A stretch of DNA of 42,382 bases from Leptolyngbyaceae cyanobacterium (GTDB taxonomy: Bacteria; Cyanobacteriota; Cyanobacteriia; CAKZMO01): positions 1 through 42,382 of the forward strand of contig JBFRWC010000300.1 in the NCBI GenBank assembly GCA_051439365.1, read 5' to 3'. The translations under genes and the position numbers were made by a program. The notes beneath the pieces are model-generated. The model had not been told where the DNA came from. It saw only the letters and a program-made list of their open reading frames with translations, and did no database searches. Positions 817-18,208 of the stretch are shown piece after piece. The first letter of the stretch is position 1. Every line of letters begins with the position of its first letter.

Positions 817-1986
817 TTATGGTTCCGGTGGCAGTTCCAGGAAAATGCGATCGCCCCCATCCAACCCCGCCAAAATCTCAGTTTTCCCGGTTTGAGTAAT
901 ACCCACGGTAACGGGTTGGAATGCTGGATTTCCCTCACTGTCTGGCATTTGCACGCCAAGTTGTCCATCCTGGGTGGCGATCGCCACCGTCGGCACCATC
1001 AGGGCATCGGTTACGGTCTCACCAATAAAGGCAGCATCCACGGTCATCCCCGATCGCAGTTGGTCGGTGCCCGTCAACAATTCCACCACCACCTGAAATG
1101 TGGTGACATTATTTTCAATGATGGCCTCTGGGGCAATGCGTTGCACCTGACCTTGGTAAACCTGATTGGGAAAGGCTTCTGCCACAATCTCAACCGCTTG
1201 GCCCACTTGAATTTGGCCAATATTGGCTTCTAAAATATCAATTTCGACTTCCAACCCGGATGACAACGCCAAAATTGAACTCGAAGTTGCAGATGCCGTA
1301 GACGACGCCGTAGTTGTGGGTGTAACGATCGCGCCCATCGTGGCGTAGGTTTGGGTGACGTAGCCGCTAAACGGGGCACGAATATTTGCCTCTGCCAGTT
1401 CCGTTTCAACCACTGCCAGTTGAGCCTGAGCCGCTGCCACATTCGCTGCCGCCGCCGCAATTTCTTCAGGCCGGGAACCGCTGGCGATCGCCTCAAGCTG
1501 TTGTTCTGCCTCATCAAAATTGGCTACCGCACTCTTGGCTTCACTCACATATTGGTCCAACTCATTTTGGGAAATTGCCCCCTGCTGCGCCAGATCCTCA
1601 AACCGAGCCAACCGAGCAGCAGTCAGATCCACTTGGGATTGGGCCGTGACTAAACGGGCTTCCGCTTGGCGAATTTCCTCATCACGATTGCCAGCTAACA
1701 CCTTGGCATAATCGGCTTCGGCCTGGGCAAGCTGAGCCTGTCGTTGCTGTCGCTCAGCGGTCAAACTGCCCACTTCCATCCGGGCTACCACCTGACCTGC
1801 CTCAACGCGATCGCCCTGCTGGACATAGAGTTCTGCTACCCGCCCGGTGGTTTTGGGACTAAGGTTCACGCTGTCTTTGGAGATGACCGTACCGCTGCCC
1901 TCCACCCGAATGGCTAAAGTCTCATAGGTGACAGGAACGGTTAACGACTCTAATATCTCTGCTCGGTTAGTGTCCTGTCTAGTCAT
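817..1986 (-). CDS. HlyD/DevB-family efflux adaptor (membrane-fusion protein); anchorless as delimited by the ORF track
   Basis: 389-aa ORF. It has a lipoyl-like hairpin (VNLSPKTTGRVAELYVQQGDRVEAGQVVARM), a long Ala/Gln/Glu-rich coiled-coil region and a second hairpin half (IRAPFSGYVTQ). It sits directly upstream of the permease gene. Confidence 0.85.
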   Translation of the reverse strand: MTRQDTNRAEILESLTVPVTYETLAIRVEGSGTVISKDSVNLSPKTTGRVAELYVQQGDRVEAGQVVARMEVGSLTAERQQRQAQLAQAEADYAKVLAGNRDEEIRQAEARLVTAQSQVDLTAARLARFEDLAQQGAISQNELDQYVSEAKSAVANFDEAEQQLEAIASGSRPEEIAAAAANVAAAQAQLAVVETELAEANIRAPFSGYVTQTYATMGAIVTPTTTASSTASATSSSILALSSGLEVEIDILEANIGQIQVGQAVEIVAEAFPNQVYQGQVQRIAPEAIIENNVTTFQVVVELLTGTDQLRSGMTVDAAFIGETVTDALMVPTVAIATQDGQLGVQMPDSEGNPAFQPVTVGITQTGKTEILAGLDGGDRIFLELPPEP

Positions 1987-2376: not shown

Positions 2377-2820
2377 TTAGATCTGGCTAACGATCGTCAT
2401 TTCCAGAATGCTTTCAATTTGTTCAGGATTTAGAATGTCTTGAAGCTCATTAACCATTGCTTCACGAGCTTCGACAATCTGCTTTGCTTGCTCCTCAGTC
2501 AAGTCTAATTCTTCTGTCAGTGCTTGAGCATTGTGGGCTTGAGGTTGCATCTGAGATTGCATTTCTTCCCGTTCAGCTTGCAACAGTTCAAGCTGTTCAG
2601 ACGTGAGGATATCTTCGACTTCGGATCGAAAACCTCGCATCACGCCAGCTAGTTGACGCATTTGCGATCGGCTCAGATCCATCTCTTCGGCCATTTCCCG
2701 CATGGCCTGCCGACTAACTTGGGCTGTAGCAGGCTGAACAGTAAAGCTTCCGATGCCTAGGATCATTGTTCCAATCACCAAGGGGCTGATGATTTGTTTG
2801 GGCGTGAATTGGATTTGCAT
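2377..2820 (-). CDS. Periplasmic LTXXQ-motif protein (Spy/CpxP-like)
   Basis: 147 aa. Signal-peptide-like N-terminus (IISPLVIGTMILGIGSFTVQPATAQ). The rest is helical and acidic with repeated LTXXQ-type motifs (LSRSQ, LTSEQ, LTEEQ, LNPEQ). Confidence 0.6.
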   Translation of the reverse strand: MQIQFTPKQIISPLVIGTMILGIGSFTVQPATAQVSRQAMREMAEEMDLSRSQMRQLAGVMRGFRSEVEDILTSEQLELLQAEREEMQSQMQPQAHNAQALTEELDLTEEQAKQIVEAREAMVNELQDILNPEQIESILEMTIVSQI

Positions 2821-3027: not shown

Positions 3028-3996
3028 ATGAGCAACCGAACGAAAACCCAACGTCAAAACTTGAAAAATCTGTTTCAAGACATCAAAACTAGTATTAATG
3101 TCTCTCGCTCAGAAATCGAGTTTTCCTCATTCAAGCAGGATTTGAAGGCAGCATTGAAGGATGGCAATTTTACCCGCAGGGAATTTCGAGCTACTCAAAA
3201 AGAGGTGAAATCAATCATCAAAGAGGCAGATATTTCCGTGGAAGATGCGGAAACCTTGTTGACAGACTTACAGAAAATTGCCGTGGAAGCGGGGACAAAG
3301 CGACCAATTACTCTTTCCAAAGAACAACAAGAAAATATCCAGAAATTAATTGTAAATGTGCAAGAAAGTGTTGATTCTCCCCCCGATCAAGAGTTAATCA
3401 ATGAGTTGCGAACCACGTTGACCGATGCGTTGAGTGATGGGGAACTGACGGAGGATGAATGGGTGGCGATCGCCCAGGACACCATTGAAGTTGTCGCCTC
3501 TGTGGGAGTTACTGCTGAAGAAGCCCGCATCATTTTCTACGACTTGCAGGATATTGCTAATACCTCCCAGTTACCCAGAACCAACGATGATCTGACAGGT
3601 ACTGATGAAAATGATATCCTTTGGGACGGGCTGGGGAATGACACCTTGACCGGGACTGGAGCCAATGGCGGCGTGGGTGAAACTGACTGGCTCATCGGCG
3701 GTGGTGGCAAGGATCGGTTTGTGTTGGGCGATCGCCAACAGGCTTTCTATAATGATGGCCAAGCCTTCACGGCAGGTCTCTCAGACTTTGCCGCAGTTCT
3801 GGACTTTAATGTCAACCATGATGTGATTCAACTGCATGGATCAGCGGCAACCTATCAACTGGCCGAACTGCCGGACAGCGTGGGCATCTCAGGGACAGGC
3901 ATCTATCAGACAGAAGGAGAGACTACGCCAGAACTAATTGGAGTGGTTGTGGGTGTGACCTTGACCGATATGTCATCAGGGTTTGCATTTGTCTAG
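3028..3996 (+). CDS. Calcium-binding protein with hemolysin-type (RTX-like) Gly/Asp repeats; no signal peptide
   Basis: 322 aa, ATG preceded by AAGGAA. C-terminal half reads GTDENDILWDGLGNDTLTGTGANGGVGETDWLIGGGGKDRFVLGD, followed by ...DVIQLHGSAATYQL...GTGIY...ELIGVVVGV. The N-terminus is hydrophilic (MSNRTKTQRQNLKN). Confidence 0.7.
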   Translation: MSNRTKTQRQNLKNLFQDIKTSINVSRSEIEFSSFKQDLKAALKDGNFTRREFRATQKEVKSIIKEADISVEDAETLLTDLQKIAVEAGTKRPITLSKEQQENIQKLIVNVQESVDSPPDQELINELRTTLTDALSDGELTEDEWVAIAQDTIEVVASVGVTAEEARIIFYDLQDIANTSQLPRTNDDLTGTDENDILWDGLGNDTLTGTGANGGVGETDWLIGGGGKDRFVLGDRQQAFYNDGQAFTAGLSDFAAVLDFNVNHDVIQLHGSAATYQLAELPDSVGISGTGIYQTEGETTPELIGVVVGVTLTDMSSGFAFV

Positions 3997-4014
3997 GGTT
4001 CAGCACACCTAAAT

Positions 4015-4033
4015 AGATCCCATTTGGGGATCT
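4015..4033 (+). terminator. Candidate hairpin downstream of the RTX-like gene
   Basis: AGATCCC-atttg-GGGATCT (7-bp stem) followed only by TT. The U-tail is weak. Confidence 0.3.
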
Positions 4034-4243
4034 TTAAGAACGGTAGAATGCATGAAACCTCCCCCACCTGCTACCGCGAGGATGGAGAGTGCGACGAATT
4101 TTGTTCAAAAATGGTGCTTCAAAAATGAAGTCTTCCAGTTGTTGAAGGGATCGTAAGTGGATACGACTTGCTGAACCTCACGATTAGTGGGGTTCAGCGG
4201 CACAGAGGGACAAACTAAAAGACTTGGGCGAAACTAGGCAGAT

Positions 4244-7200
4244 TTAAGCGGTGCGGCTTACCTCCAGGTAGTCAAAATTTCCACCACTGCGGCCCGTTGC
4301 CGTTAGTCGGATCGTATTGAGACCTGCATCCAGATTGAGCGATCGCGTTAGCAAGTCCCAATCATCCCAGCTTAGGGTGTTAGCGAACTCAATCCGTTCC
4401 ACCGTTTGGCCATTGACCGATAGATCCAGGGGACGTTGGCCTTTCCCCAAACTATAGCGCCAAGCTAAGTCGTATTCTCCTGCCGTTTCGGCATCAACCG
4501 ACCACTCAATGAAGGCTCCATCTTTGCCTCGGAAGTCCACTAGTTGACCGTCTACCCCAGATTGAGAACGAGCGATCGCCCCATTTAACCAAGCATCTTC
4601 TGCCTGCAAACGGGTCACACTGGGAGGCTCGGTGGGAGGGGCGGGGGTCGGGTCAGGATTGGGAGTCGGTGAGGGGCTGGGATCAACGGGCTGGGGACTC
4701 GGGGACTCGGTCACGGTTGTGGGCGTGATCGTTAAAGAGTCAAAATCACCGCCGCTCTTGCCAATGGCGGTCAATCGAATGGTGTTCGCCCCAGCTTTGA
4801 GATCTAGGGTACGGGTGAGGTTTTCCCAGGTATTCCAATCCGCCGTGTTGGGGAAATCAAGACTGGCCTCCACTACTTCGCCATTGATGCTGAGAGCAAG
4901 GGGGCGATCGCCACGGCCTAATGTATAGCGCCAGGATAGATCATAGGTTCCTGGTTGGGCCATGTCCACCGACCATTCAATGAACGCTCCATCCTGCCCC
5001 CGGAAGTCTACAAATTCCCCATCCTCAGCACCCGGTTTTGTCCGGACGATCGCCCCACTCAACCGAGCCTCTTCCGCCGGTAGCGTCACACTGGACTCAC
5101 CAGAAATCGGGTTAGGGCTGGGGCTAGGATTAGGATTGGGGCTGGGATTAGGATTAGGGCTGGGTGTAGGCGTAGCATCAATCGGCGGCTCAGTTACGGG
5201 TGGATCGCTGGGGGGAGTGTCATCCGGGCTGGGACTGGGACTGGGGCCAGAATCCCCAAGTCCACTGTCATTCGGTTGTCCGATCGGATTCATTACTGAT
5301 CCCGTTTGAGCGATGATCTTGCCGTTCCGAACCGTTGCTTTTATTGTCGCTGATGCCCCCTGGTTATCGTAAACCGTGAGGGCAACCGTATGATCCCCCT
5401 GGCCCAACGTGCGATTTACCGTCCATCCCCAATCGTCGTAAACCCCGTCATCATTAAAATCCCAGGCATAAGAGGCGATCGTGTTGTGGTTATCCGTTAA
5501 CTTATAGACCGGATAATCAGGATCAACTGAGGCTCGACCGTTAAAGGTGAGTTCGTTTCCAGCAGACGATACACTAAACTTGGCGACTGGTGCTTGGTTG
5601 TCCGAGGGCGGTTCAAAATACAACTCCCCACTCATCTGATAGTACGGATTGAAGGGGTTGTAATTACGGCTACTCATCATTGAGGTATCCTGTGCCCGAT
5701 CCCCAGCCCGTCCCGGAGTCGCCGCTAAATTATAGGTGTTGTTGGCAAAATATCCACCGATCAATTGTCCCGGTCCCAATGGTCCCTCACTGGACAGGTT
5801 CAGCCCTTGACCTTCCGTTTGCTGAACCAGTGCCCCCACTTCAAAGCCTTCAACCCGATTATTCTTCAGCGTCACGTAACGCGCATTTTTCGCTAGGAAA
5901 ATGCCATGACCATACATGCCATTGTTGTCTGCTCCAACAAAATTGCCTCGTTCCAGGGGATCAGTCATGTCACCCAAAAAGAGGGAATTTTCCACGTTGG
6001 TGTGAGCTGCATAACCAATACCGAGACCAAAATGACGCACCCCCCAGACTTTCATATTGTCAATGGTGGCGCGGGTTTGATGCCCTAGATTGAAGAATCG
6101 ATCTCGGGCTACGTCATCCCGTAACACTCCCCGGATCTCTGCCCCAGACTCACTGTTGTAGGCCACATTCCCCGACCAGGGGCCAGGATTCGGCACTTTC
6201 CACGCATGAATTTCGCTGGCTCCGTTGGCAATATGGCGCAGATGGCTGGGCAAGGTGGAGACGGGCACTTTGACTAGACCAGGGGTGGGAGTCTTCAAGT
6301 TGTTGCCCCGTTTGTCCTCCGTAAATTCGTTGTCGTTGTGACCATAGAAAAGGTAGGCAGTTTCCCTCGTGCTAGTGACAATATTGTCCTCTAACGCGAA
6401 GGCGCTGTAGGGGGCATCAAGCCAGAACCCATAGCCTTGGACCCCAAGATCGCGAATGGCTCCCCGGGGTGTTTTATCCAGTTGTAAGAGACCCCGATTC
6501 ACTTGATTGGTGGACCCTTCAGCTTTGATGGCAATATTGCGGCGAAATTCAGCGATTTCATCCCCGTCTTCGGTAACATAGTGGGCACCCAACACGTCAA
6601 ATGAGACATTATCTTCCACCACGGCTTTACTGCCGTGGATCACGTATCCCCAACCGGGGCTACCATCAATGGCGTTGCCTGTGACCCTTGCTGCAGGGTC
6701 GCTGTAGCTGTTGGCATGTCTGAGGGTCTCATGGAAGTGGAGGGGATAGCGTGCTCGAGGGTTGGTGTTGGGATTGGCTAACTGATCTTTGTTGGACCGT
6801 CCCATGTCATACAAGCCAGCATTGTGGAATTCCACATCCTGATCCATGAACATGATGTGGCCCCGCTCCATAATTTGGGCGTTTTCCCCAGCTTCGGTGC
6901 TGAAGCGAACGTTGCGGGTGAGGTTGGCCACGTAGATGTCGAGGCCATAGCCCTCAGGGACAGTGTGGTCAAACCGAAGAGCATTGCCGTTGACATCGTT
7001 GTGGTTGAAGGTGATTCGGCTGCCGTTGATACTGGTGATGGTCAGTTCTTCGTCTTCAAAGAAGCTGTTGTCATCGTGGGACAAGCTTTTGTCTCTCCAG
7101 TTGATCCGGCCAGCGGTCCCCGTGAGGACGATGCGATCGCCCACCTGCCAGTCATCAGGGATGGGATCATCGAAGGTGAGGGAGCGATCGCCCGCCTTGG

Positions 7201-9019
7201 CATTGTCTTTCAAGGTGATGTACGGAGTCTTTTCTGCGCCCCACACATCCACTGAGGAATCCTTCATCGTAATCAAGCCCCGGCTCACCAGTTTTGAATC
7301 CCATGATTGATTCACCACCCGGTTGTTGGAGTTGACGGGAGCAAACACGATATCCGTGGTCACAGACTCCCGCACCGGATTGTTGCGAGAGCCGATGTTT
7401 AACTCTCCCCCCGATATCACCATCATCGTGTCCACCAACATCCTAGTATCCTGATTGGCCGCAAAGGTGAGATTGCCATCCACCCGCACGGTGAACAATC
7501 GAGCGTTACTCTCGCCGTCGTAGGTGACGGTGGTGCCTTGGGGAATCACAATGCGGGCATTGTTCCCTGGAAGCTGACCACCCCAGGTTTTGGGATCAAA
7601 CCAGGAGCCGCTGTTGACCGCTGTGTGGGTGGCGGCCCCAGTGGGCACCAGCTTCATGAGTTCTTGCATATGGCTCATCTGCATCTCCATCAGTGGACGG
7701 TCCGTTGCCGTTCCGGCCTCTGGAGTATCCCCTGAATCAATGATATCGACTGCCTCAGGGTCGTAGGATTCACCTTGGATGCTGCTAGCTTTTTCTAGGG
7801 CCGCATCCAAATTCAGGACACCATAACCCGTATTCGCATCCCAGCCATCAACATCCAAATCGGTGGCTGTGGTCTGGAGGATTTCAATCACCTGACGATA
7901 GCTGAGGCCGGGGTTACGATCCCAAATGCGAGTGGCGGCTCCCGACACTTGGGCCGCCGCAGCGGAAGTCCCAAACAATGTCTCATCTGAGTTGGGGAAA
8001 ACTGTGAGAGGGTCTTCAGACGTGCCCCCATTGGCTAGAATTCCTAATCCCACCCCCGTGTTGGAATAAGTCGATCGACTGGCATTCTCGACAGCACCGA
8101 CCGTTAAAACATGGTCGAATTGGCGCGAGGATTGAGCCAAGGCCGAGAGAGCATTGCCATCATTACCTGCGGCAACGACCACCAGCACACCATGCTGACG
8201 GGCATATTCTAGGGCTTCCTGTTCCGCTTCAGTGAGATGATCACGGGCAATGACCTCACCATTTTCATCCTTGATGACTAAATCAAAACTGAGATTAGCG
8301 ATCGCTTTCCTATGACCCGCCGCCTTACTTGCATCCACAAATTCCACTAATGATTCCGTCCAATCGCCAGAACCAACGGCATTCCCTAACCACAATTTTG
8401 TCTGATCATTGATACCATCAATCCCGTCACCATTATTTTGTTGGGCACCAATGAGGTTGGCGATCGCACTACCATGAGCATTACCTTGAACCCCTGCTTT
8501 TGTTCCGGTGTTTGTACGAGTTGTCCCCCACTCTAAGCGAGAGAATTCCACATCCATTTTCTCAGGGACAAATCCGGTGTCAATGATCCCGACCATGCTA
8601 CGATCCGCAGTGGGAGCAAGCCCAAGAGGGGAAAACTCAAGATCTTCAGGCAGTCCAGTTAATTGATCGAGAGACTTTTCAAAAGCCCCTGAAGAAGAAT
8701 CGCCTGGGAGAAACACCTGAGCAGTCTCCAATTGTCCTCCCTCTTCTGCTGGAGAATAACTATCAGCATCAGGATTAGATAATCCATCATCCTGTAATCC
8801 TTCAAACTCAAAAATATTGTCATTAGAATAGTCTACTAGTGGCGCTGGCGATGATAGAAATGGTAGATGTTCAATATTTGATGCATCATTAGATAATACA
8901 CTGGGGTGGTTGCTCCTTAGTTCTAATAGGGCTGGCAGCAAATCATCCTGGAATTCTGATAAGGTTTGTCCAGCATGAAGGGATGATGCATTCAACTGGT
9001 CAGAGGTGAGAAGTTCCAT
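4244..9019 (-). CDS. 1591-aa multidomain exoprotein: S8 subtilisin-like peptidase + G8 / right-handed beta-helix + PKD + two CBM6/35-like modules
   Basis: ATG 9019 with AAGGA upstream.
- S8 triad motifs: VGIIDTGF (Asp ~147), NAHGSAIA (His ~182), GTSAAAAQVSG (Ser ~352).
- G8-like segment: SGSWFDPKTWGGQLPGNNARIVIPQGTTVTYDG.
- Beta-helix region with ERGHIMFM...GRSN...RYPLHFHE.
- PKD-like segment: FNGRASVDPD...YAWDFNDDG...HTVALTVYDNQGASATIKATV.
- Two ~125-aa paralogous C-terminal modules (...GAFIEWSVD...YDL.WRY.LG...RPL.LS.NG...NTIRLTA.G.SGG.FD) separated by Pro/Ser/Asn linkers.
- No N-terminal hydrophobic signal sequence. Confidence 0.85.
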   Translation of the reverse strand: MELLTSDQLNASSLHAGQTLSEFQDDLLPALLELRSNHPSVLSNDASNIEHLPFLSSPAPLVDYSNDNIFEFEGLQDDGLSNPDADSYSPAEEGGQLETAQVFLPGDSSSGAFEKSLDQLTGLPEDLEFSPLGLAPTADRSMVGIIDTGFVPEKMDVEFSRLEWGTTRTNTGTKAGVQGNAHGSAIANLIGAQQNNGDGIDGINDQTKLWLGNAVGSGDWTESLVEFVDASKAAGHRKAIANLSFDLVIKDENGEVIARDHLTEAEQEALEYARQHGVLVVVAAGNDGNALSALAQSSRQFDHVLTVGAVENASRSTYSNTGVGLGILANGGTSEDPLTVFPNSDETLFGTSAAAAQVSGAATRIWDRNPGLSYRQVIEILQTTATDLDVDGWDANTGYGVLNLDAALEKASSIQGESYDPEAVDIIDSGDTPEAGTATDRPLMEMQMSHMQELMKLVPTGAATHTAVNSGSWFDPKTWGGQLPGNNARIVIPQGTTVTYDGESNARLFTVRVDGNLTFAANQDTRMLVDTMMVISGGELNIGSRNNPVRESVTTDIVFAPVNSNNRVVNQSWDSKLVSRGLITMKDSSVDVWGAEKTPYITLKDNAKAGDRSLTFDDPIPDDWQVGDRIVLTGTAGRINWRDKSLSHDDNSFFEDEELTITSINGSRITFNHNDVNGNALRFDHTVPEGYGLDIYVANLTRNVRFSTEAGENAQIMERGHIMFMDQDVEFHNAGLYDMGRSNKDQLANPNTNPRARYPLHFHETLRHANSYSDPAARVTGNAIDGSPGWGYVIHGSKAVVEDNVSFDVLGAHYVTEDGDEIAEFRRNIAIKAEGSTNQVNRGLLQLDKTPRGAIRDLGVQGYGFWLDAPYSAFALEDNIVTSTRETAYLFYGHNDNEFTEDKRGNNLKTPTPGLVKVPVSTLPSHLRHIANGASEIHAWKVPNPGPWSGNVAYNSESGAEIRGVLRDDVARDRFFNLGHQTRATIDNMKVWGVRHFGLGIGYAAHTNVENSLFLGDMTDPLERGNFVGADNNGMYGHGIFLAKNARYVTLKNNRVEGFEVGALVQQTEGQGLNLSSEGPLGPGQLIGGYFANNTYNLAATPGRAGDRAQDTSMMSSRNYNPFNPYYQMSGELYFEPPSDNQAPVAKFSVSSAGNELTFNGRASVDPDYPVYKLTDNHNTIASYAWDFNDDGVYDDWGWTVNRTLGQGDHTVALTVYDNQGASATIKATVRNGKIIAQTGSVMNPIGQPNDSGLGDSGPSPSPSPDDTPPSDPPVTEPPIDATPTPSPNPNPSPNPNPSPSPNPISGESSVTLPAEEARLSGAIVRTKPGAEDGEFVDFRGQDGAFIEWSVDMAQPGTYDLSWRYTLGRGDRPLALSINGEVVEASLDFPNTADWNTWENLTRTLDLKAGANTIRLTAIGKSGGDFDSLTITPTTVTESPSPQPVDPSPSPTPNPDPTPAPPTEPPSVTRLQAEDAWLNGAIARSQSGVDGQLVDFRGKDGAFIEWSVDAETAGEYDLAWRYSLGKGQRPLDLSVNGQTVERIEFANTLSWDDWDLLTRSLNLDAGLNTIRLTATGRSGGNFDYLEVSRTA
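5109..5170 (-). repeat. Hexanucleotide microsatellite inside the CDS, encoding the PTPSPNPNPSPNPNPSPSPNP linker
   Basis: The plus strand reads gggttagggctggggctaggattaggattggggctgggattaggattagggctggg. This is alternating GGATTA/GGGCTG-type hexamers. Confidence 0.8.
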
Positions 9020-10175
9020 AGTTAATATCCTTAGAGAGTGAAGATGTGATAGCTCGATGTAGTCAGCGGAAGTAAACGGCAGCAGTATCTTTCACAATGA
9101 TGCTTAGATCATGTGAAGGACTGATTAGAACCTGATTGACGGAAAAACTTGTATGATTAGTGCTTAAAACCACAGTAAAACGGGTTAAAAAACACTGTAG
9201 ATTGTGTCAAGTCTGATGCTGAAAGTGAATAACAGCACAGCGAAAACGAAACCTTAATTAGAGATGTAGGTCACAGAGAATTCTGATGACTCTGAACCCG
9301 CACAATGGTTTAATTCTCAATGGGAAGATTAGGATAAGTACCCAGGGCAGATGTCTAGGATAGATGTTCAGTATGTCTGTTTGAGATCTGAATATCTGCG
9401 AAGAGGATGGTGATAACACCCATTGTTAATCTCAGTCATCACTACTTCATAACCACTACACTAGCTTTTGACCATTTCTTTATAGAGATAGTTCCCAGAT
9501 TTGAAATTAGGATGAAGACAACCTCAGGCTACAACCCATATTGCCCCATATCACAACACAAACCGAATCTTTTGGGTTCTTCAGGGCATAGGCTAATTGA
9601 CTGAAAAAAGACCATTGTGTAGGTTGGGTTAGCCTTACTGAAAGGGAGATGAGTCTAGTGGAGATGAGCCTTCCTTTACAAAACTTAACTATTGTTTACT
9701 CATGGCTTTTGGTATTTATGCTATGCTCGAGGGTTAACCCGAACGGTTGTCAGATTGATGGCAATCCCATCGATCTGAAGGGTGGCCCAAATGATGGCAG
9801 TGGTGAAATGATCGTCCAATCCCCTATCATCGGGGCTGTGGTGCGATCGCCCAAGGTTGGGTAAGGGCGATCGCCTATTGGCCAACCATATTACTAATAT
9901 TAAAAAAAGTTAATAAAACAGCCCCTCTAACTCAAACTTGTTTGTAGTTTTCTATACTAAGATTAAGAGGACAAGGAGACTCTTCTAGTCTGGTAGACTC
10001 AGGGGTTAGTAAGTCTGTGGCCCTGCTCTGGGAACATGCGTATGTTCTGAGGCACATGCTACTGTCACCGTCTTGGATATCAGCCTTAGATATCAGCTCT
10101 GTTAGTAGAGAGCAACTTTAGTACTCCTTGCTTCTATCAGGCCGTGCATTAGTGTAGTCCATCATCTTTGCAGCG

Positions 10176-11981
10176 ATGACGGTCAGGTGTACGGCAAAGT
10201 TCCTTCAACGCAGTTCACTATTAGAAAGGCAGTTAGGCGTGAGTCAACACCCAATCAATCAAAGTAAGCGGTACGATGCTGAGACAATTGCTCAATACTA
10301 TCGTCGCCGTCCTTGGCGGGTAATGTGGCGAGCATTCACTATTTTTAGAGAATTTGTTGGTCTTTTTCTAGCAATTAAGTTGGATGCCCTTACGGGTGCG
10401 ACTGGTAACCTTCAACGAAACTCGACATCCGTGGGACGGGCGGCTGAGCACTTGCGCCAGATGTTGATTCGCCTCGGTCCCACCTTCATCAAAGTCGGGC
10501 AAGCCCTCTCTACTCGCCCTGACCTAGTTCGGGCTGACTTTTTGGATGAGTTGACTAAGCTTCAAGACCAACTGCCACCGTTTCCCTCCAAAATGGCCCA
10601 TGCGCTGATTGAGCGGGAGTTGGATGATACTATCGACGACCTGTTTGCTGACATCTCTGCTGAACCTGTCGCAGCGGCGAGTCTGGGGCAAGTGTATCAG
10701 GCTAGACTGCATACTGGAGAAGCCGTAGCGGTTAAGGTGCAACGTCCCAACCTGCTGCCTCAGTTGACATTGGATTTGTACCTGATGAGATGGGCCGCTA
10801 GCTGGATTGCCCCTTGGCTCCCATTAAACTTGGGCCACGACTTGCAGCTCATTGTGGATGAGTTCGGGACTAAGCTATTCGAGGAAGTTGATTACCTCAA
10901 TGAAGGGCGCAATGCAGAGCAATTTGCTACGAATTTTCAAAATGACCCGCGAGTCAAAGTTCCCAGCATTTTTTGGCGCTACAGTAACACCCATGTTTTG
11001 ACCCTAGAGTGGATTGACGGGTTTAAGCTGACGGACACTGACAAGATCAAGCAAGCCGACTTAGATTTGGATACGTTGATTGAAATCGGTGTGACCTCTG
11101 GTTTGCAACAATTGCTAGAGTTTGGGTTCTTTCATGCTGACCCCCATCCAGGCAACCTATTTGCTACTCCTGACGGGCGCATGGCCTACATTGACTTTGG
11201 CATGATGGACCAACTAGGCCAGTCCATGAAGGAAGCCCTCGTGGATTCTTTGGTTCACTTGATTAATCAGGATTACAGTAACTTAGCCGATGATTTTGTC
11301 AAGCTGGGTTTTCTGACCCCAGGGACTGACATTACGCCGATTATTCCGGCCCTGGAATCGGTCTTCGACAATGCTATTGGGGAAAGTGTTGCAGAGTTCA
11401 ACTTCCAGACGATTACGAACAGCTTCTCGGAGTTGATGTATGAGTATCCATTTCGGATACCTTCCAAGTTCGCTCTGATTATCCGGTCATTGGTAACTCA
11501 GGAAGGCATCGCGCTGACCCTCAATCCCAATTTCAAGATCGTTGAGGTGGGCTATCCCTATGTGGCGCGGCGATTGCTGACGGAAGAAACCCCAGCGTTT
11601 CGCCAACGCCTGATCGAGGTTTTATTTAAAGATGGCAAGTTTCAATGGACTCGGTTGGAAAACCTGATTGCGATCGCCCGTACCAGCGGAGACTTTGACC
11701 TCCTGCCCTCAGCCCAATTGGGGTTGCAGTATGTGTTGTCCGAGGAAGGCGAGTTTCTCCGGCGGCAGGTGATGTTGTCCCTAGTGGAAGACGATCGTCT
11801 CCAAACTGAGCCTGTGGGTCGCTTGTGGGATCTAGTCAAGCCCGAACTTCATCCCGAACGGTTATTCAACGTTGCCGTGGAAGCCATCAGTGACTTTTCC
11901 TCGGAACAGGCCAATAACCTCCTGCCGGATCTAACAGGATTGGTCGCCTTTCAGAGAGATGATAACCGCGAGCGAGTTTAA
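10176..11981 (+). CDS. ABC1/UbiB (AarF) family atypical kinase
   Basis: 601 aa. Motifs: AAASLGQVYQARLHTGEAVAVKVQRP, FFHADPHPGNLF, YIDFGMM. The exact start is uncertain; a GTG at 10239 is an alternative. Confidence 0.9.
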   Translation: MTVRCTAKFLQRSSLLERQLGVSQHPINQSKRYDAETIAQYYRRRPWRVMWRAFTIFREFVGLFLAIKLDALTGATGNLQRNSTSVGRAAEHLRQMLIRLGPTFIKVGQALSTRPDLVRADFLDELTKLQDQLPPFPSKMAHALIERELDDTIDDLFADISAEPVAAASLGQVYQARLHTGEAVAVKVQRPNLLPQLTLDLYLMRWAASWIAPWLPLNLGHDLQLIVDEFGTKLFEEVDYLNEGRNAEQFATNFQNDPRVKVPSIFWRYSNTHVLTLEWIDGFKLTDTDKIKQADLDLDTLIEIGVTSGLQQLLEFGFFHADPHPGNLFATPDGRMAYIDFGMMDQLGQSMKEALVDSLVHLINQDYSNLADDFVKLGFLTPGTDITPIIPALESVFDNAIGESVAEFNFQTITNSFSELMYEYPFRIPSKFALIIRSLVTQEGIALTLNPNFKIVEVGYPYVARRLLTEETPAFRQRLIEVLFKDGKFQWTRLENLIAIARTSGDFDLLPSAQLGLQYVLSEEGEFLRRQVMLSLVEDDRLQTEPVGRLWDLVKPELHPERLFNVAVEAISDFSSEQANNLLPDLTGLVAFQRDDNRERV

Positions 11982-15555: not shown

Positions 15556-16215
15556 CTATCGCCCCCGATCATGCAGTGCATGAATTGCATCAGTGCAGCG
15601 CTGGGTCAGATCCAATAAGACAGAACGATCGCTCGATTCCGGTGGATCAATCGGTTTCCCAATTCGCACTGTCACCGGCACCGATTGGGGCAAAGCTTTC
15701 CCCTTGATCAGAACATCCTGAGTTCCCCACAAACTCACAGGTAACAGAGGAACTTGAGCCTTTGCCGCAATCAAAGCTGCTCCCAACTTGGGCGAAGGAA
15801 TCCGAGCATCGTTGGTGCGGGTGCCCTGGAGAAAAATGCCCACTGCCCAACCTTTTTCCAGGCGGGCTAAGGCAGCCCGGATAGCAGAGCGATCGCCCCC
15901 GCCTCGCTTCACTGGATAAGCCCCATAAAGCTGAATCGCTTGCCGAAAGACAGGAGTTCTAAACAACTCCTCTTTAGCCATATAGGCCACGGGACGGCGA
16001 ACACAATTTGACAACAATGGGGGGTCAAAATAACTAGCATGGTTACTAACCACCAACAATGGTCCCTGTAACGGCACCTGATCCGCCCCATAAATCTGGC
16101 CCCGAAAATAAGTATGGAGCATGGGACTGACCACACTCCACTTCAGTAGATGATACAAGCACAGACTGGACCAGGGTTCACGCGGTTGGCTCATGGATGC
16201 TCCACTGTCAAGCAT
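15556..16215 (-). CDS. plsC: 1-acyl-sn-glycerol-3-phosphate acyltransferase
   Basis: 219 aa. HX4D motif in VVSNHASYFDPP. It is the last gene of the plsX-fabH-fabD cluster. ATG 16194 is an alternative start. Confidence 0.85.
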   Translation of the reverse strand: MLDSGASMSQPREPWSSLCLYHLLKWSVVSPMLHTYFRGQIYGADQVPLQGPLLVVSNHASYFDPPLLSNCVRRPVAYMAKEELFRTPVFRQAIQLYGAYPVKRGGGDRSAIRAALARLEKGWAVGIFLQGTRTNDARIPSPKLGAALIAAKAQVPLLPVSLWGTQDVLIKGKALPQSVPVTVRIGKPIDPPESSDRSVLLDLTQRCTDAIHALHDRGR

Positions 16216-16270
16216 TTAGAATTGTAACAAGGGGAAAATATCTGAGAATCCAGACAAGAACTGAGAACGA

Positions 16271-17152
16271 TTAAGGTGCGATCGCTGCCAACCCACTGAC
16301 ATTCCCCAAGCCCATGCCCTTGCAAGTGCGTTTCATTAACCCAGTGAGTACCTTGCCGGGACCAATTTCTTGCATGAACTCGACTCCTTCAGATTCCAGT
16401 TGCAGGGCAATCTCGCGCCATCGTACCGCCCCCGTCATTTGCCGAGCCAATCGTTGCTTAATCAATACCGGATCGGTGGTGGGATTGGGGTCAACATTAG
16501 ACAATACCGGAACCTTCGCTTCTGCAAATGCCACCGCGTCCAACAGGGGTTGATAAATGCTAGCTGCTTTCGCTAACAAAGGAGAATGAAACGCTCCACT
16601 CACCTTAAGCAGCACTTTCCGTTTGGCCTTGAGGGTATCCATCACTCCCTGCACTGCTTCAGGGGTTCCCGAAATCACTACCTGGCCTGGGCTATTGTCA
16701 TTGGCTAAGACCACTCCATCAGTCTGTTCTAAAACCGCATCCAAGTCTTCCCGCTTAAATCCCATTAGAGCCGCCATCGCCCCTTCAGAGGCTTGACTCA
16801 TCAGTTGCGATCGCTGTTGCACCAATTTCAGCCCCGACTCAAAATCAAAGACTCCAGCCACATACAGAGCCACATATTCCCCTAAACTGTGCCCAGCGAC
16901 AAAATGAGGCGCGTGTCCTTGCTCCATGAGCAAGTCTGCCAAAATGCTTTCAATGATGTACAGGCAGGGTTGGGTATACTGGGTGCTGGATACTTTGTCG
17001 TCTTCGCTTTGGCAAATATCAAACACAGACCATCCTAAAATGGCCTCTGCTTGCTGAAACCGTTGCTGAGCATGGGGTATATTGCTCAGATCACTCCCCA
17101 TCCCCACTTCTTGTGATCCTTGTCCCGGAAATACCCATGCCGTTGTTGTCAT
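16271..17152 (-). CDS. fabD: Malonyl-CoA:ACP transacylase
   Basis: 293 aa. Motifs: FPGQGSQ, GHSLGEY and SGAFHSPLL. Confidence 0.95.
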   Translation of the reverse strand: MTTTAWVFPGQGSQEVGMGSDLSNIPHAQQRFQQAEAILGWSVFDICQSEDDKVSSTQYTQPCLYIIESILADLLMEQGHAPHFVAGHSLGEYVALYVAGVFDFESGLKLVQQRSQLMSQASEGAMAALMGFKREDLDAVLEQTDGVVLANDNSPGQVVISGTPEAVQGVMDTLKAKRKVLLKVSGAFHSPLLAKAASIYQPLLDAVAFAEAKVPVLSNVDPNPTTDPVLIKQRLARQMTGAVRWREIALQLESEGVEFMQEIGPGKVLTGLMKRTCKGMGLGNVSGLAAIAP

Positions 17153-17156
17153 TGCC

Positions 17157-18152
17157 TTACCCCCACTGGAAAATTGCTGCGCCCCAGGTTAAGCCAGCAC
17201 CAAAGCCAGCGGATGCAATTATATCACCTGGTTTAATCATTCCTTTGCGAACATATTCATCAAAGGCAATGGGAATGGACGCGGCAGATGTGTTGCCATA
17301 GTGAGCCATGTTGCTGATCACTTTTTCGCTAGGAACACCGAGACGTTGAGCGGCTGCGTCGAGAATGCGCTGGTTCGCCTGATGGAGCAGGAGCCAATCC
17401 ACATCGTCCACCACCAGTTCGGCATGGTGCAGAGCTTTGCTCACGACATCGGGGACTTGGCGCACGGCAAATTTATACACGTCTTGCCCCTTCATGGCGA
17501 TGGGGGCAAAGGTGCCTTGTTCCACGGTAATGCCATCCACTAATTCCTGACTCTGACTGGTGTAACCCAAGGTTAAACAGGCATTTTGAGTCCCGTCGCT
17601 GCGCAGCTCAAACCCCAAAAGGCGATCGCGCTCACTTCGTTGCATCACCACTGCCCCGGCCCCGTCGCCAAACAAAACACAAGTGCGACGATCGCTCCAG
17701 TCCACCCAGCGAGACAACACATCTGCCCCAATTAACAGCACATTTTGGTACACCCCAGTACGGATAAACTGAGCTGCTGTTACCATGCCAAAGATAAACC
17801 CCGAACAGGCTGCTGTCAGGTCAAAGGCCACCGCTTGAGTGGCTCCAATGGCTGCTTGCACCTTGCTGGCACTACCAAACAAATCATCAGGGGTAGAGGT
17901 CGCAAGAAGAACCAAATCGATGTCACTGGGTTGGAGGTTGGCCCTGGAGATCGCTCCCTCTGCGGCTTGAGCAGCTAGGGACACCAGGGATTCTGATGGC
18001 GAGACCAGTCGCCGCTGCCGAATCCCTGTCCGCGAGGCGATCCACTCATCCGAGGTCTCCACCATTTGACTCATGCCCGCGTTATCTAGTGATTGGGCTG
18101 GAGTGGCTGAACCACTCCCTAAAATCGCCACGCCATGTCCAACGTTTTCCAT
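17157..18152 (-). CDS. fabH: 3-oxoacyl-ACP synthase III
   Basis: Active-site motifs AACSGF, HQAN and GNTSAAS. ATG 18152 is preceded by GGAGAGTGAGG. The ORF-track start at 18158 is a GTG two codons upstream. Confidence 0.95.
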   Translation of the reverse strand: MENVGHGVAILGSGSATPAQSLDNAGMSQMVETSDEWIASRTGIRQRRLVSPSESLVSLAAQAAEGAISRANLQPSDIDLVLLATSTPDDLFGSASKVQAAIGATQAVAFDLTAACSGFIFGMVTAAQFIRTGVYQNVLLIGADVLSRWVDWSDRRTCVLFGDGAGAVVMQRSERDRLLGFELRSDGTQNACLTLGYTSQSQELVDGITVEQGTFAPIAMKGQDVYKFAVRQVPDVVSKALHHAELVVDDVDWLLLHQANQRILDAAAQRLGVPSEKVISNMAHYGNTSAASIPIAFDEYVRKGMIKPGDIIASAGFGAGLTWGAAIFQWG

Positions 18153-18208
18153 CCTCACTCTCCGCCCTAGGGCTGACTTGCTAACTTGATCTCACCTGCT
18201 GGCGATCG

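What the first reader, a model, noticed from the sequence alone, without database searches (positions are those of the whole stretch)
4244..9019. Unusual fusion: S8 subtilase + G8/CEMIP-like beta-helix + PKD + tandem CBM6-like modules in one 1591-aa polypeptide
The sequence shows a complete Asp/His/Ser subtilase triad (aa ~140-410). It is followed directly by a G8-type segment and a long parallel beta-helix-like region containing GHIMF...RYPLHFHE.

I associate that signature with G8-domain proteins such as the CEMIP/TMEM2 hyaluronan-depolymerising family. A PKD domain and two paralogous ~125-aa carbohydrate-binding-like modules complete the protein.

A protease and a putative glycan-cleaving beta-helix with glycan-targeting modules on one chain would be a bifunctional enzyme acting on glycoprotein, sheath or EPS material. 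I do not recognise this architecture as a described enzyme class. The ~140-aa acidic N-terminal region before the protease has no recognisable function; it could be a propeptide.
Basis: partly seen in the sequence, partly recalled or inferred. Interest (0 to 1): 0.7.

Follow-up and report, generated by a model that had tools for sequence, protein, structure and literature searches.

The report
Subtilase fused to CEMIP-like glycan enzyme
A cyanobacterial gene joins an intact subtilisin-type protease to a complete bacterial relative of the human CEMIP/TMEM2 beta-helix, plus sugar-binding modules. The combination is real but very rare, and it is one more swap in a large family of cyanobacterial proteins that carry different cell-envelope-degrading domains behind the same protease head.

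Summary
A 1591-aa ORF on the minus strand (9019..4244) encodes six parts:
- a disordered acidic N-terminus (aa 1-135);
- an intact S8 subtilase (D147/H182/N286/S352);
- a G8 + CEMIP-type beta-helix (aa 443-1135);
- a PKD-like domain;
- two CBM35/CBM6 modules that are 60% identical to each other.

The AlphaFold2 model of aa 440-1140 (pLDDT 87.9) matches the TMEM2 ectodomain best (E 2e-16). The motifs GHIMFM, RYPLHFH and E-x-G-x-E are shared with TMEM2.

The fusion is not an assembly artefact. Three assemblies carry orthologs at 64-66% identity, one in conserved synteny. It is very rare: among 1.84 billion cluster representatives, only one protein covers both the S8 and G8 parts.

The S8 head belongs to a cyanobacterial clade (45-53% identity) with freely varying payloads. 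Of 118 relatives, 57 carry peptidoglycan hydrolase domains and 9 carry lipases. The C-terminal 1150 aa are a full copy of stand-alone prokaryotic G8 proteins.

Most likely it is an exported matrix- or envelope-degrading enzyme aimed at an acidic polysaccharide. Its catalysis, substrate and export route are all inferred. Verdict: a new variant of known kinds, of moderate interest.

The parts
4244..9019 (-). Whole ORF: 1591 aa plus stop, 171.5 kDa, pI 4.5, no cysteine
8615..9019 (-). aa 1-135: acidic, disordered N-terminal region with no Sec/Tat signal peptide and no I9 propeptide
   Evidence: pLDDT <50 for aa 1-131. Identity to orthologs is 34-36%, with indels. No hydrophobic core. No Pfam hit.
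7694..8614 (-). aa 136-442: S8 subtilase module of the cyanobacterial clade. Catalytic residues are D147, H182, N286 (oxyanion) and S352. It ends in a degenerate form of the clade's C-terminal motif TWSGEGxVTPxER(A/P); R441 is kept.
5615..7693 (-). aa 443-1135: one continuous right-handed beta-helix unit. It comprises a His/Met-rich start, a conserved helix (LVP..ATH), G8 (aa 478-602), a small beta-sandwich insert (about aa 606-700) and the CEMIP-type helix (aa 720-891 and onwards). Residues invariant in 56 homologs: R702, H721, R741, K744, N753, R757, H761, W790, H795, E817, E821, N828, D857, N879.
5324..5614 (-). aa 1136-1232: PKD-like Ig domain
   Evidence: PKD_4 E 2.2e-4, below the Pfam cutoff. 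Homologs carry PF00801/PF18911. tblastn hits to aa 1141-1231. The profile hits collagenase PKD domains at E about 0.01.
5090..5323 (-). aa 1233-1310: Pro/Ser/Thr-rich linker (54% P+S+T)
4721..5089 (-). aa 1311-1433: first CBM35/CBM6-type module
4616..4720 (-). aa 1434-1468: second Pro/Ser/Thr-rich linker (71% P+S+T)
4247..4615 (-). aa 1469-1591: second CBM35/CBM6-type module. The closest solved relatives are the uronate-binding CBM35s (2W47, 2VZP, 4QB1).

Best explanation
The gene encodes an exported, modular enzyme that degrades extracellular matrix or cell envelope. It arose by fusing two pre-existing units.

**Unit 1** is the catalytic head of a cyanobacterial clade of S8 subtilases. In that clade the head is routinely followed by interchangeable hydrolytic or adhesive payloads.

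**Unit 2** is a complete copy of a stand-alone prokaryotic G8/CEMIP-type beta-helix protein, with its PKD and CBM35 modules.

**Proposed working (inferred).**
- The two CBM35-type modules, on flexible Pro/Ser/Thr linkers, hold the protein on an acidic, probably uronic-acid-bearing polysaccharide. This could be sheath, EPS or capsule, the cell's own or a neighbour's.
- The beta-helix cuts or modifies that polymer in a groove lined by conserved Arg/Lys/His/Glu/Asp on successive rungs.
- The active subtilase cleaves protein in the same matrix, or trims the polypeptide itself.

**Shown:** the domain identities, an intact triad, the fold, purifying selection on both catalytic units, the rarity of the fusion and the modular context.

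**Inferred:** export, glycan cleavage, the substrate and the biological role.
For: - **Domains and triad:**
- **Selection:** folded domains are 66-83% identical among three orthologs, against 34-41% in the N-terminus and the inter-domain linkers (20-50% across all linker segments). Both enzymatic units are therefore under purifying selection.
- **Protease activity:** the triad is kept in about 97% of 120 clade sequences.
- **Clade payloads:** of 118 relatives, 57 carry a peptidoglycan hydrolase domain (M23 in 33, CHAP in 18, Amidase_3 in 5, GH108 in 4, GH25 in 2, GH19 in 1). Nine carry a lipase. LysM, SH3, LGFP and PPC domains are common.
- **Fixed module boundary:** the clade consensus ends at ..ER(A/P), which is R441 here. 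Sequences diverge completely after it.
- **G8 unit boundary:** stand-alone G8 proteins align from about aa 443-457 onwards.
- **Beta-helix fold:** pLDDT 87.9, pTM 0.92. The top match is TMEM2 (E 2.3e-16), followed by phage capsule depolymerases, the K1 capsule lyase, GH110, GH87 and alginate epimerases.
- **Conserved site:** 14 invariant polar residues across bacterial and archaeal homologs, several shared with TMEM2.
- **Genomic context of G8 genes:** stand-alone G8 genes sit next to EPS biosynthesis genes in 2 of 3 contexts.
- **CBMs:** they are closest to uronate-specific CBM35s (E 1.5e-17; PMC9843283).
- **Export-type features:** the protein is acidic and cysteine-free and carries extracellular-type domains.
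Against: - There is no signal peptide and no recognisable secretion signal. There are no RTX repeats, and no secretion genes are conserved across the orthologous loci.
- No member of the prokaryotic G8 family has a reported activity in the searchable literature.
- The closest solved relative, the TMEM2 ectodomain, showed no hyaluronidase activity in vitro and no assignable active site (PMC10206443).
- The uronate assignment for the CBMs rests on nearest-neighbour similarity. The His of the uronate signature appears to be replaced by Arg in the pairwise alignment.
- The window contains no EPS gene cluster adjacent to the gene.
Confidence: 0.55

Rival explanations
1. Polymorphic-effector reading. 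The S8 head is not a second activity aimed at the substrate. It is the constant processing or delivery module of a cyanobacterial polymorphic exo-effector family. After export it cleaves near the conserved boundary (..TWSGEGxVTPxER|) and releases the variable payload. Here the payload is a capsule/EPS depolymerase used against competitors or to breach matrices.
For: - A constant S8 module is followed by highly variable C-terminal payloads of 300-2200 aa.
- A conserved motif sits exactly at the module boundary.
- Subtilisin is listed among the releasing peptidases of polymorphic toxins (PMC3482391).
- The protein evolves fast compared with its neighbour: 64% identity against 90% for the adjacent ABC1 kinase.
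- Fold matches include phage capsule depolymerases.
Against: - No immunity-like partner gene is conserved next to the gene.
- The boundary motif is degenerate in this protein and its orthologs; the Trp is lost.
- The payloads are envelope hydrolases, not the intracellular toxins typical of polymorphic toxin systems.
- No cleavage data exist.
Confidence: 0.25
2. The beta-helix is a non-catalytic binding or adhesion scaffold. The only enzyme is then the protease, targeted to a glycan surface by the helix, PKD and CBM modules.
For: - Recombinant TMEM2 ectodomain lacked hyaluronidase activity and has no assignable active site (PMC10206443).
- Many relatives combine the helix with cadherin-like, Big and PKD adhesion-type domains.
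Against: - Fourteen polar residues are invariant across cyanobacteria, alphaproteobacteria, planctomycetes and haloarchaea. They recur at roughly 20-40-residue intervals on successive rungs. That pattern is typical of a catalytic groove rather than a binding surface.
- Dedicated CBMs are already present for binding.
Confidence: 0.15
3. Artefact: two adjacent genes (an S8 gene and a G8 gene) were joined by misassembly, a sequencing frameshift or a lost stop codon.
For: - The G8 unit begins with a Met-rich stretch (MEMQMSHM) that resembles the N-termini of stand-alone homologs.
- GC content differs slightly between the halves: 0.49 against 0.54.
Against: - The same uninterrupted fusion is present in three independent assemblies at 64-66% identity, with the junction in frame.
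- One of them has the same divergent ABC1-kinase neighbour.
Confidence: 0.02

Closest known systems
CEMIP (HYBID/KIAA1199) and TMEM2 (CEMIP2), vertebrate G8 beta-helix proteins
   Same: - The G8 segment is continuous with a right-handed parallel beta-helix.
- Pfam G8 and CEMIP_beta-hel both score above their cutoffs.
- A profile of homologs hits TMEM2 at E 6e-15, and the best fold match is 8C6I.
- Shared motifs: GH(I/V)M(I/F)M, GRYP(V/L)HFH, HxS, E-x-G-x-E.
- The small beta-sandwich insert is also shared.
   Different: - There are no GG (lectin-like) domains, which are required for hyaluronan degradation in CEMIP/TMEM2. Carbohydrate binding is supplied instead by two C-terminal CBM35-type modules.
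- The host is prokaryotic, so hyaluronan is an unlikely substrate.
- The protein is fused to a protease.
- Identity to TMEM2 is only about 12%.
Stand-alone prokaryotic 'G8 domain-containing proteins' (e.g. P0121, P0123, P0183/P0186, and the L001 965-aa paralog)
   Same: - They align along the whole of aa 443-1135, at 33-52% identity for database homologs and 63% for the L001 paralog.
- They have the same PKD and, in some cases, the same CBM6/CBM35 tail.
- They share the same invariant residues.
   Different: - They lack the S8 head.
- Some have Sec or Tat signals or a membrane anchor, while many cyanobacterial ones start directly at the His-rich or LVP helix.
- None is characterised.
Cyanobacterial clade of giant S8 family serine peptidases (e.g. 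Spirulina major P0025, Leptolyngbya sp. PCC 6406 P0044, Nostoc P0037)
   Same: - The S8 catalytic module is 45-53% identical and has the same insertions.
- It has the same C-terminal boundary.
- The triad is conserved.
- A large hydrolytic payload lies C-terminal to the protease.
   Different: - Most relatives have DUF4114 before the S8 domain (85 of 118).
- About a third have an N-terminal FILEPILTPSG motif.
- Their payloads are peptidoglycan hydrolases, lipases and lectins.
- The window protein has none of these features and is, with its two orthologs, the only one with a G8 payload.
Beta-helix polysaccharide depolymerases (phage capsule depolymerases, K1 capsule lyase 7W1C, PL6 chondroitinase B, GH87, GH110, AlgE/AlgG epimerases)
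   Same: The fold is the same. The presumed groove lies along one face of the helix. They are associated with acidic exopolysaccharides.
   Different: There is no sequence-level relationship; Foldseek TM scores are only 0.2-0.3 with identity of 13% or less. The catalytic residues are not alignable. The chemistry (hydrolase, lyase or epimerase) is undetermined.
Uronate-binding CBM35 modules (Rhe-CBM35 2W47, Chi-CBM35 2VZP, Xyn30D-CBM35 4QB1)
   Same: These are the best PDB sequence matches (E 1.5e-17 to 3e-13). The QAEDA start, the W..W motif, RY..G..RP and the N-x-DY motif are conserved.
   Different: The His of the uronate-specific region appears to be replaced by Arg in the pairwise alignment. 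Ligand and calcium dependence are untested.

Membership tests
Peptidase S8 (subtilase) | Asp-His-Ser triad in D-H-S order within the DTG / HGT / GTS motifs, plus the oxyanion Asn | tested here: met
   D147 (IIDTGF), H182 (NAHGS), N286 (AAGNDG) and S352 (GTSAAA). The same columns are conserved in 117-119 of 120 clade sequences.
Peptidase S8 (subtilase) | Profile match above the curated threshold, and a subtilisin fold | tested here: met
   PF00082 scores 98.8 bits against a cutoff of 21.8. The model of aa 140-430 has pLDDT mostly 80-97. Foldseek matches savinase/Carlsberg at E 4.5e-16 with TM 0.73.
Peptidase S8 (subtilase) | Proteolytic activity | not testable with these tools
   Needs an enzyme assay with wild type and the S352A mutant.
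T7SS mycosin (TIGR03921) | Equivalog score above the cutoff | tested here: not met
   99.8 bits against a cutoff of 278.75. It is the best NCBIfam hit but far below threshold.
CEMIP/TMEM2 family | G8 domain | tested here: met
   PF10162, E 8.3e-17, 61.7 bits against a cutoff of 22.9, at aa 478-602.
CEMIP/TMEM2 family | CEMIP-type parallel beta-helix continuous with G8 | tested here: met
   PF24606 scores 48.9 bits against a cutoff of 27.3. The AF2 model has pLDDT 87.9. The top PDB match is 8C6I at E 2.3e-16 with TMq 0.54. A profile hits TMEM2 at E 6.1e-15 with shared motifs.
CEMIP/TMEM2 family | Two GG (lectin-like) domains, GG-1 inserted in the helix and GG-2 at the C-terminus | tested here: not met
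   No GG/ILEI-type Pfam hit at E <= 0.1. Only about 118 aa lie between G8 and the CEMIP helix, and they align to the small beta-sandwich of TMEM2 (residues 336-458 of the 8C6I chain sequence), not to the lectin domain. The domain definition is taken from PMC12423501 and PMC10206443.
CEMIP/TMEM2 family | Hyaluronan binding or depolymerisation | not testable with these tools
   Requires biochemistry. This activity is itself disputed for TMEM2 (PMC10206443; PMC12423501).
CBM35 / CBM6 | Profile match above the curated threshold, in two copies | tested here: met
   CBM_6 scores 71.7 bits (cutoff 28.9) and CBM_35 56.1 bits (cutoff 28), two stretches each. The copies are 60% identical.
CBM35 / CBM6 | Uronate-specific binding signature (region A Trp, region C Asn, region D2 His, calcium site) | tested here: inconclusive
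   The best PDB relatives are uronate-binding CBM35s. Trp and N-x-DY are conserved, but the position aligned to the His of 2W47 (YHNE) is Arg (FRGK).
PKD domain | Profile match above the curated threshold | tested here: inconclusive
   PKD_4 scores 21.6 bits against a cutoff of 27, and PKD 16 bits against 23.5. Homologs and tblastn matches support a PKD-like Ig fold.
Polymorphic toxin/effector systems (Zhang et al. 2012) | Constant N-terminal module with variable C-terminal effector domains across paralogs and orthologs | tested here: met
   At clade level, there is one S8 module and dozens of payload combinations.
Polymorphic toxin/effector systems (Zhang et al. 2012) | Adjacent cognate immunity gene | tested here: not met
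   Neighbours differ between the window, L001 and L002, and none is conserved downstream.
Type I secretion substrate | RTX nonapeptide repeats or a C-terminal secretion signal | tested here: not met
   No HemolysinCabind hit. The C-terminus is a folded CBM.
Type I secretion substrate | No Sec signal, acidic, cysteine-poor, with an ABC/MFP exporter nearby | tested here: inconclusive
   No signal peptide, pI 4.5 and zero Cys. A MacA/HlyD-type adaptor (817-1986) and the start of a MacB/FtsX-type permease (left edge of the window) lie 2.3 kb downstream. This arrangement is absent from L001.

The most novel reading that the evidence does not exclude
The protein is one arm of an undescribed cyanobacterial system of polymorphic, secreted lytic effectors built on a common S8 head. 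In this arm the payload is a catalytically active prokaryotic CEMIP-type enzyme that depolymerises an acidic exopolysaccharide or capsule.

If so, two things follow.
- The invariant R/K/H/E/D groove (R702, H721, R741, K744, R757, H761, H795, E817, E821, D857) would define a new carbohydrate-active enzyme family. It would also point to the long-sought active site of CEMIP/TMEM2.
- The clade as a whole would use non-Sec export. For the motif-bearing members this may go through the neighbouring intramembrane-metalloprotease plus HlyD-like pair.
Probability: 0.2. Interest if true: 0.75.

Novelty: new variant of a known kind. Interest (0 to 1): 0.45.

Why it matters
- **A tractable CEMIP/TMEM2 relative.** This is a small, soluble, cysteine-free prokaryotic member of the CEMIP/TMEM2 beta-helix family, with a sharply conserved polar groove. 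It offers a way to test whether the fold is catalytic and where its active site lies. That question is still open for the human proteins.
- **An unrecognised protein family.** The work exposes a large and apparently undescribed family of giant cyanobacterial proteins. In it, one subtilase head is combined with peptidoglycan hydrolases, lipases, lectins and, here, a glycan-active helix. These are candidates for matrix remodelling or interbacterial antagonism in mats and blooms.
- **A candidate depolymerase.** If active, the enzyme would be a new depolymerase for uronic-acid-rich cyanobacterial EPS.

Tried and rejected
- **Double-glycine leader.** I considered that MELLTSDQLNASSLHAG could be a double-glycine (PCAT/T1SS) leader. 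The three orthologs do not conserve it, so I dropped the idea.
- **Single-sequence search of the G8 region against PDB.** It gave nothing. Only the profile and the fold search reached TMEM2.
- **Rfam scan of the whole window.** No hits.
- **Promoter and terminator scan of 3900-10200.** No better than shuffled sequence.
- **Exact look-up of the window protein.** It is not in the 15-billion-protein collection. The source genome was not found in genome contigs either; only an ortholog in the MAG 'Cyanothece sp. SIO2G6' was found.
- **Literature searches.** I searched for prokaryotic G8 proteins, DUF4114-S8 proteins, the ILEPILTPS motif and CEMIP catalytic residues. No characterisation turned up.
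- **Operon partners.** I looked for a conserved secretion or immunity partner of the window gene. The neighbours (an LTXXQ-like periplasmic protein, an RTX-like protein and a MacAB-type exporter) are not shared with L001.
- **Mycosin assignment.** Rejected on score.
Full report
**What is there**

The finding's coordinates delimit a single ORF on the minus strand (9019..4244; 1591 aa; ATG; no earlier in-frame start). Pfam places the following domains:
- Peptidase_S8 at aa 141-400 (98.8 bits);
- G8 at aa 478-602 (61.7 bits);
- CEMIP_beta-hel at aa 720-891 (48.9 bits);
- a weak generic Beta_helix hit at aa 982-1062;
- a sub-threshold PKD_4 at aa 1141-1229;
- two CBM_6/CBM_35 stretches in the last 280 aa.

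The catalytic residues can be read directly: D147, H182, the oxyanion N286 and S352. The domain aligns end to end with subtilisin DY/Carlsberg. An AlphaFold2 model of aa 1-470 gives a confident subtilisin fold for aa 140-430. Foldseek matches it to savinase at E 4.5e-16 with TM 0.73.

In the same model, aa 1-131 have pLDDT below 50. That region is acidic (26 D+E against 3 K+R). It has no hydrophobic core and is only 34-36% identical among orthologs, with many indels. It is therefore a disordered, fast-evolving segment and not an I9-type propeptide.

The two C-terminal modules are 60% identical to each other (E 4e-52). They are separated by linkers of 54-71% Pro/Ser/Thr.

**The beta-helix part**

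A search with aa 440-1140 found about 200 relatives. Nearly all are proteins of 800-1200 aa annotated at most as 'G8 domain-containing', 'PKD domain-containing' or 'cadherin-like'. They come from cyanobacteria, Parvularculaceae and other alphaproteobacteria, planctomycetes, Opitutales and haloarchaea.

With 56 of them as the alignment, AlphaFold2 gave a model with pLDDT 87.9 and pTM 0.92. Its best PDB match is the TMEM2 ectodomain 8C6I (E 2.3e-16, TMq 0.54). Next come phage capsule depolymerases, the Klebsiella K1 capsule lyase, GH110, GH87 and alginate C5-epimerases.

A profile of the alignment hits TMEM2 by sequence at E 6.1e-15. The aligned motifs are RGHVMFM/GGHIMIM, RGRYxLHFH/GRYPVHFH, HxS and E-x-G-x-E. 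Homology to CEMIP/TMEM2 is therefore established.

Fourteen polar residues are invariant in all 56 sequences: R702, H721, R741, K744, N753, R757, H761, W790, H795, E817, E821, N828, D857 and N879. They fall at the edges of consecutive strands, about 20-40 residues apart. That spacing is what a groove along one face of a beta-helix would give. This last point is an inference, because the model's coordinates could not be inspected.

Two cautions apply. First, the TMEM2 crystal-structure paper found no hyaluronidase activity and could not assign an active site (PMC10206443). A 2025 review still calls the roles of the G8 and PbH1 parts unresolved and shows that the lectin-like GG-1 domain is critical (PMC12423501). 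Second, this protein has no GG domains. Only the small beta-sandwich insert is present between G8 and the helix. It should be filed as a prokaryotic G8/CEMIP-type beta-helix protein, not as a CEMIP/TMEM2 orthologue, and hyaluronan should not be assumed as substrate.

**Hints to the substrate**

By sequence, the CBMs are closest to Rhe-CBM35 (2W47), Chi-CBM35 (2VZP) and Xyn30D-CBM35 (4QB1), at E 1.5e-17 to 3e-13. This is the uronate-binding subgroup of CBM35 (PMC9843283). Most signature positions are conserved, but the subgroup's His aligns with Arg, so the assignment is only suggestive.

In two of the three genomic contexts examined, stand-alone G8 genes lie beside exopolysaccharide biosynthesis genes:
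- GT2, GT2, a sulfotransferase and GH9 in a cyanobacterial MAG;
- GT4, GT2, GT2, an acetyltransferase, a priming transferase and UDP-glucose dehydrogenase in Amphiplicatus.

Together these point to an acidic exopolysaccharide. The chemistry (hydrolase, lyase or epimerase) remains open.

**The protease part and its family**

Apart from one full-length homolog, every hit of the whole protein matched only the S8 region, at 45-53% identity. All named hits are cyanobacterial proteins of 900-2700 aa.

In these proteins the S8 module is followed by 300-2200 aa of very different content. Of 118 relatives:
- 57 carry at least one peptidoglycan hydrolase domain (M23 in 33, CHAP in 18, Amidase_3 in 5, GH108 in 4, GH25 in 2, GH19 in 1);
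- 9 carry a lipase;
- LysM (28), PPC (28), LGFP (25) and SH3 (18) domains are common;
- 85 have DUF4114 ahead of the protease.

The triad is intact in about 97% of them. The module has a fixed C-terminal boundary: the consensus ...P-x-T-W-S-G-E-G-x-V-T-P-x-E-R-(A/P) is followed by complete divergence. In the window protein this motif is degenerate but R441-P442 remain. The G8 unit begins at the next residues, M443 onwards (MEMQMSHMQELMKLVP...), which is where many stand-alone cyanobacterial G8 proteins start.

The protein is thus a clean junction of two pre-existing units.

**How rare, and is it real?**

I ran a full HMMER scan of aa 100-1150 against 1.84 billion cluster representatives. Exactly one protein (P0001) covered both halves. 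All others in the top 150 matched either the S8 part or the G8 part.

Three orthologs are now known:
- the window protein;
- P0001, from a Logan assembly (66% identity; locus L001);
- a copy in the MAG 'Cyanothece sp. SIO2G6' (64% identity, truncated by the contig end and carrying at least three CBMs).

The third has the same divergently oriented ABC1-kinase neighbour as the window. That neighbour is 90% identical, against 64% for the fusion protein.

Domain-by-domain identity among the orthologs is 68-70% for S8, 71-83% for the helix, 66-71% for PKD, 72-73% for the first CBM module and 54-56% for the second. The N-terminus and the two inter-domain linkers outside the CBM pair are 34-50% identical, and the short linker between the CBMs drops to 20% in one comparison. 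Both enzymatic halves are therefore maintained by selection, and misassembly is excluded.

In L001 the ortholog is followed directly by a 965-aa stand-alone G8 paralog. It has an N-terminal membrane anchor or signal and is 68% identical to the fused copy. This suggests the fusion arose from a local duplicate.

**Export**

None of the three orthologs has a Sec or Tat signal, and many cyanobacterial stand-alone G8 proteins lack one too. The protein is acidic (pI 4.5) and contains no cysteine in 1591 residues. From general knowledge, both properties are typical of proteins exported in one step without periplasmic folding. However, it has no RTX repeats.

Downstream in the window lie:
- an RTX-like repeat protein (3028-3996, + strand);
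- a small periplasmic protein with LTXXQ-like repeats (2377-2820, minus strand);
- a HlyD/MacA-type adaptor (817-1986, minus strand);
- the start of a MacB/FtsX-type permease at the window edge.

L001 has different neighbours. The export route is unresolved and is the weakest link in the functional reading.

**Interpretation**

The best-supported reading (about 0.55) is an exported, CBM-anchored enzyme that attacks an acidic polysaccharide matrix with the beta-helix while carrying an active subtilase.

The main rival (about 0.25) is that the subtilase is the constant processing or release head of a polymorphic effector family, rather than a second activity aimed at the substrate. The modular evidence fits this. 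The absence of a conserved immunity partner and the degenerate boundary motif in this protein do not.

A non-catalytic helix (about 0.15) is kept alive by the TMEM2 data, but the invariant polar residues argue against it.

**Novelty**

Each module belongs to a known family. The combination is new and confined to one small lineage, so this is a new variant of known kinds.

The wider value lies in two uncharacterised families it brings into view:
- prokaryotic CEMIP-type helices, for which no paper was found;
- the cyanobacterial S8-head giants, likewise without a paper.

**Side observation worth follow-up**

About a third of the S8-head giants begin with a short basic stretch and a near-invariant FILEPILTPSGL(V/L)DGGDD motif. 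Four of the five motif-bearing genes examined lie within 8 kb of a conserved gene pair. The pair consists of:
- an intramembrane metalloprotease, daptide-protease-like (NF041824, E 2e-44), with a weak PqqD-like N-terminus in one locus;
- a HlyD/NHLP-secretion-like adaptor.

The motif-less window protein and the motif-less P0045 lack the pair. This looks like a leader-dependent export or processing apparatus for giant proteins. It is not part of the window.

Noticed in passing
Relatives P0002-P0120 (e.g. P0006, P0025, P0037, P0044, P0058); not in the window: About a third of the cyanobacterial S8-head giants start with a short basic stretch followed by a near-invariant motif, F-I-L-E-P-I-L-T-P-S-G-L-(V/L)-D-G-G-D-D. 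They have no Sec signal. No paper in the library contains the motif.
   Followed up: partly
L018:3577-6528; L019:3849-6672 (minus strand); L022:4718-7642 (minus strand); L023:15626-18679: Four of the five motif-bearing S8 giants examined lie next to a conserved gene pair. One partner is an intramembrane HExxH/M50-like metalloprotease of about 475-507 aa (daptide-protease-like, E 2e-44; weak PqqD/RRE-like N-terminus in L019). The other is a HlyD/NHLP-secretion-like adaptor of about 461-493 aa. The motif-less P0045 (L021) and the window lack the pair. It may be a leader-dependent export or processing system.
   Followed up: partly
window 7664-7693 (aa 443-452); L002 junction; N-termini of P0123, P0124, P0130, P0183, P0186, P0241, P0242: A His/Met-rich low-complexity stretch sits directly before the conserved 'LVP..ATH' helix of the G8 unit. 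It is present both in the fusion proteins and at the N-termini of stand-alone G8 proteins; L002 reads HGTDMNHMHGMDMSHM. It could be a metal-binding element, given the invariant His residues in the helix.
   Followed up: no
L016:1-6224 and L017:1-7496, 15964-18837: Stand-alone G8 genes lie beside exopolysaccharide biosynthesis genes (GT2, GT4, sulfotransferase, acetyltransferase, priming transferase, UDP-glucose dehydrogenase, GH9) in 2 of 3 contexts checked.
   Followed up: partly
L001:5765-8662: The P0001 ortholog is followed directly by a 965-aa stand-alone G8/CEMIP-helix paralog with an N-terminal membrane anchor or signal. It is 68% identical to the fused copy, which suggests the fusion derives from a tandem duplicate.
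   Followed up: partly
window 3028-3996 (+), 2377-2820 (-), 817-1986 (-), 1-~800 (-): Downstream neighbours of the gene are a 322-aa protein with RTX-like Gly/Asp repeats and no Pfam hit, a 147-aa signal-peptide protein with LTXXQ-like repeats, a HlyD/MacA-type adaptor, and the start of a MacB/FtsX-type permease that runs off the window. No link to the S8-G8 gene is shown.
   Followed up: partly
window 9020-10175: A 1.16-kb intergenic region lies between the S8-G8 gene and the divergent ABC1 kinase gene. It has no ORF of 80 aa or more, no Rfam hit and no above-chance promoter or terminator pattern. The equivalent spacer in L002 is about 1.09 kb.
   Followed up: no
window 4244-9019 compared with 10176-11981: The S8-G8 protein is 64% identical to its ortholog in L002, while the adjacent ABC1 kinase is 90% identical. 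The fusion protein is evolving unusually fast. It also contains no cysteine in 1591 residues.
   Followed up: no
window 35413-37284 (-); L022:15622-19033: A RoxA-like di-haem cytochrome c gene is present in the window, 26 kb from the finding. Similar RoxA-like genes plus a lipoxygenase lie a few kb from the S8 giant P0037 in a Nostoc contig. This is probably coincidence.
   Followed up: no
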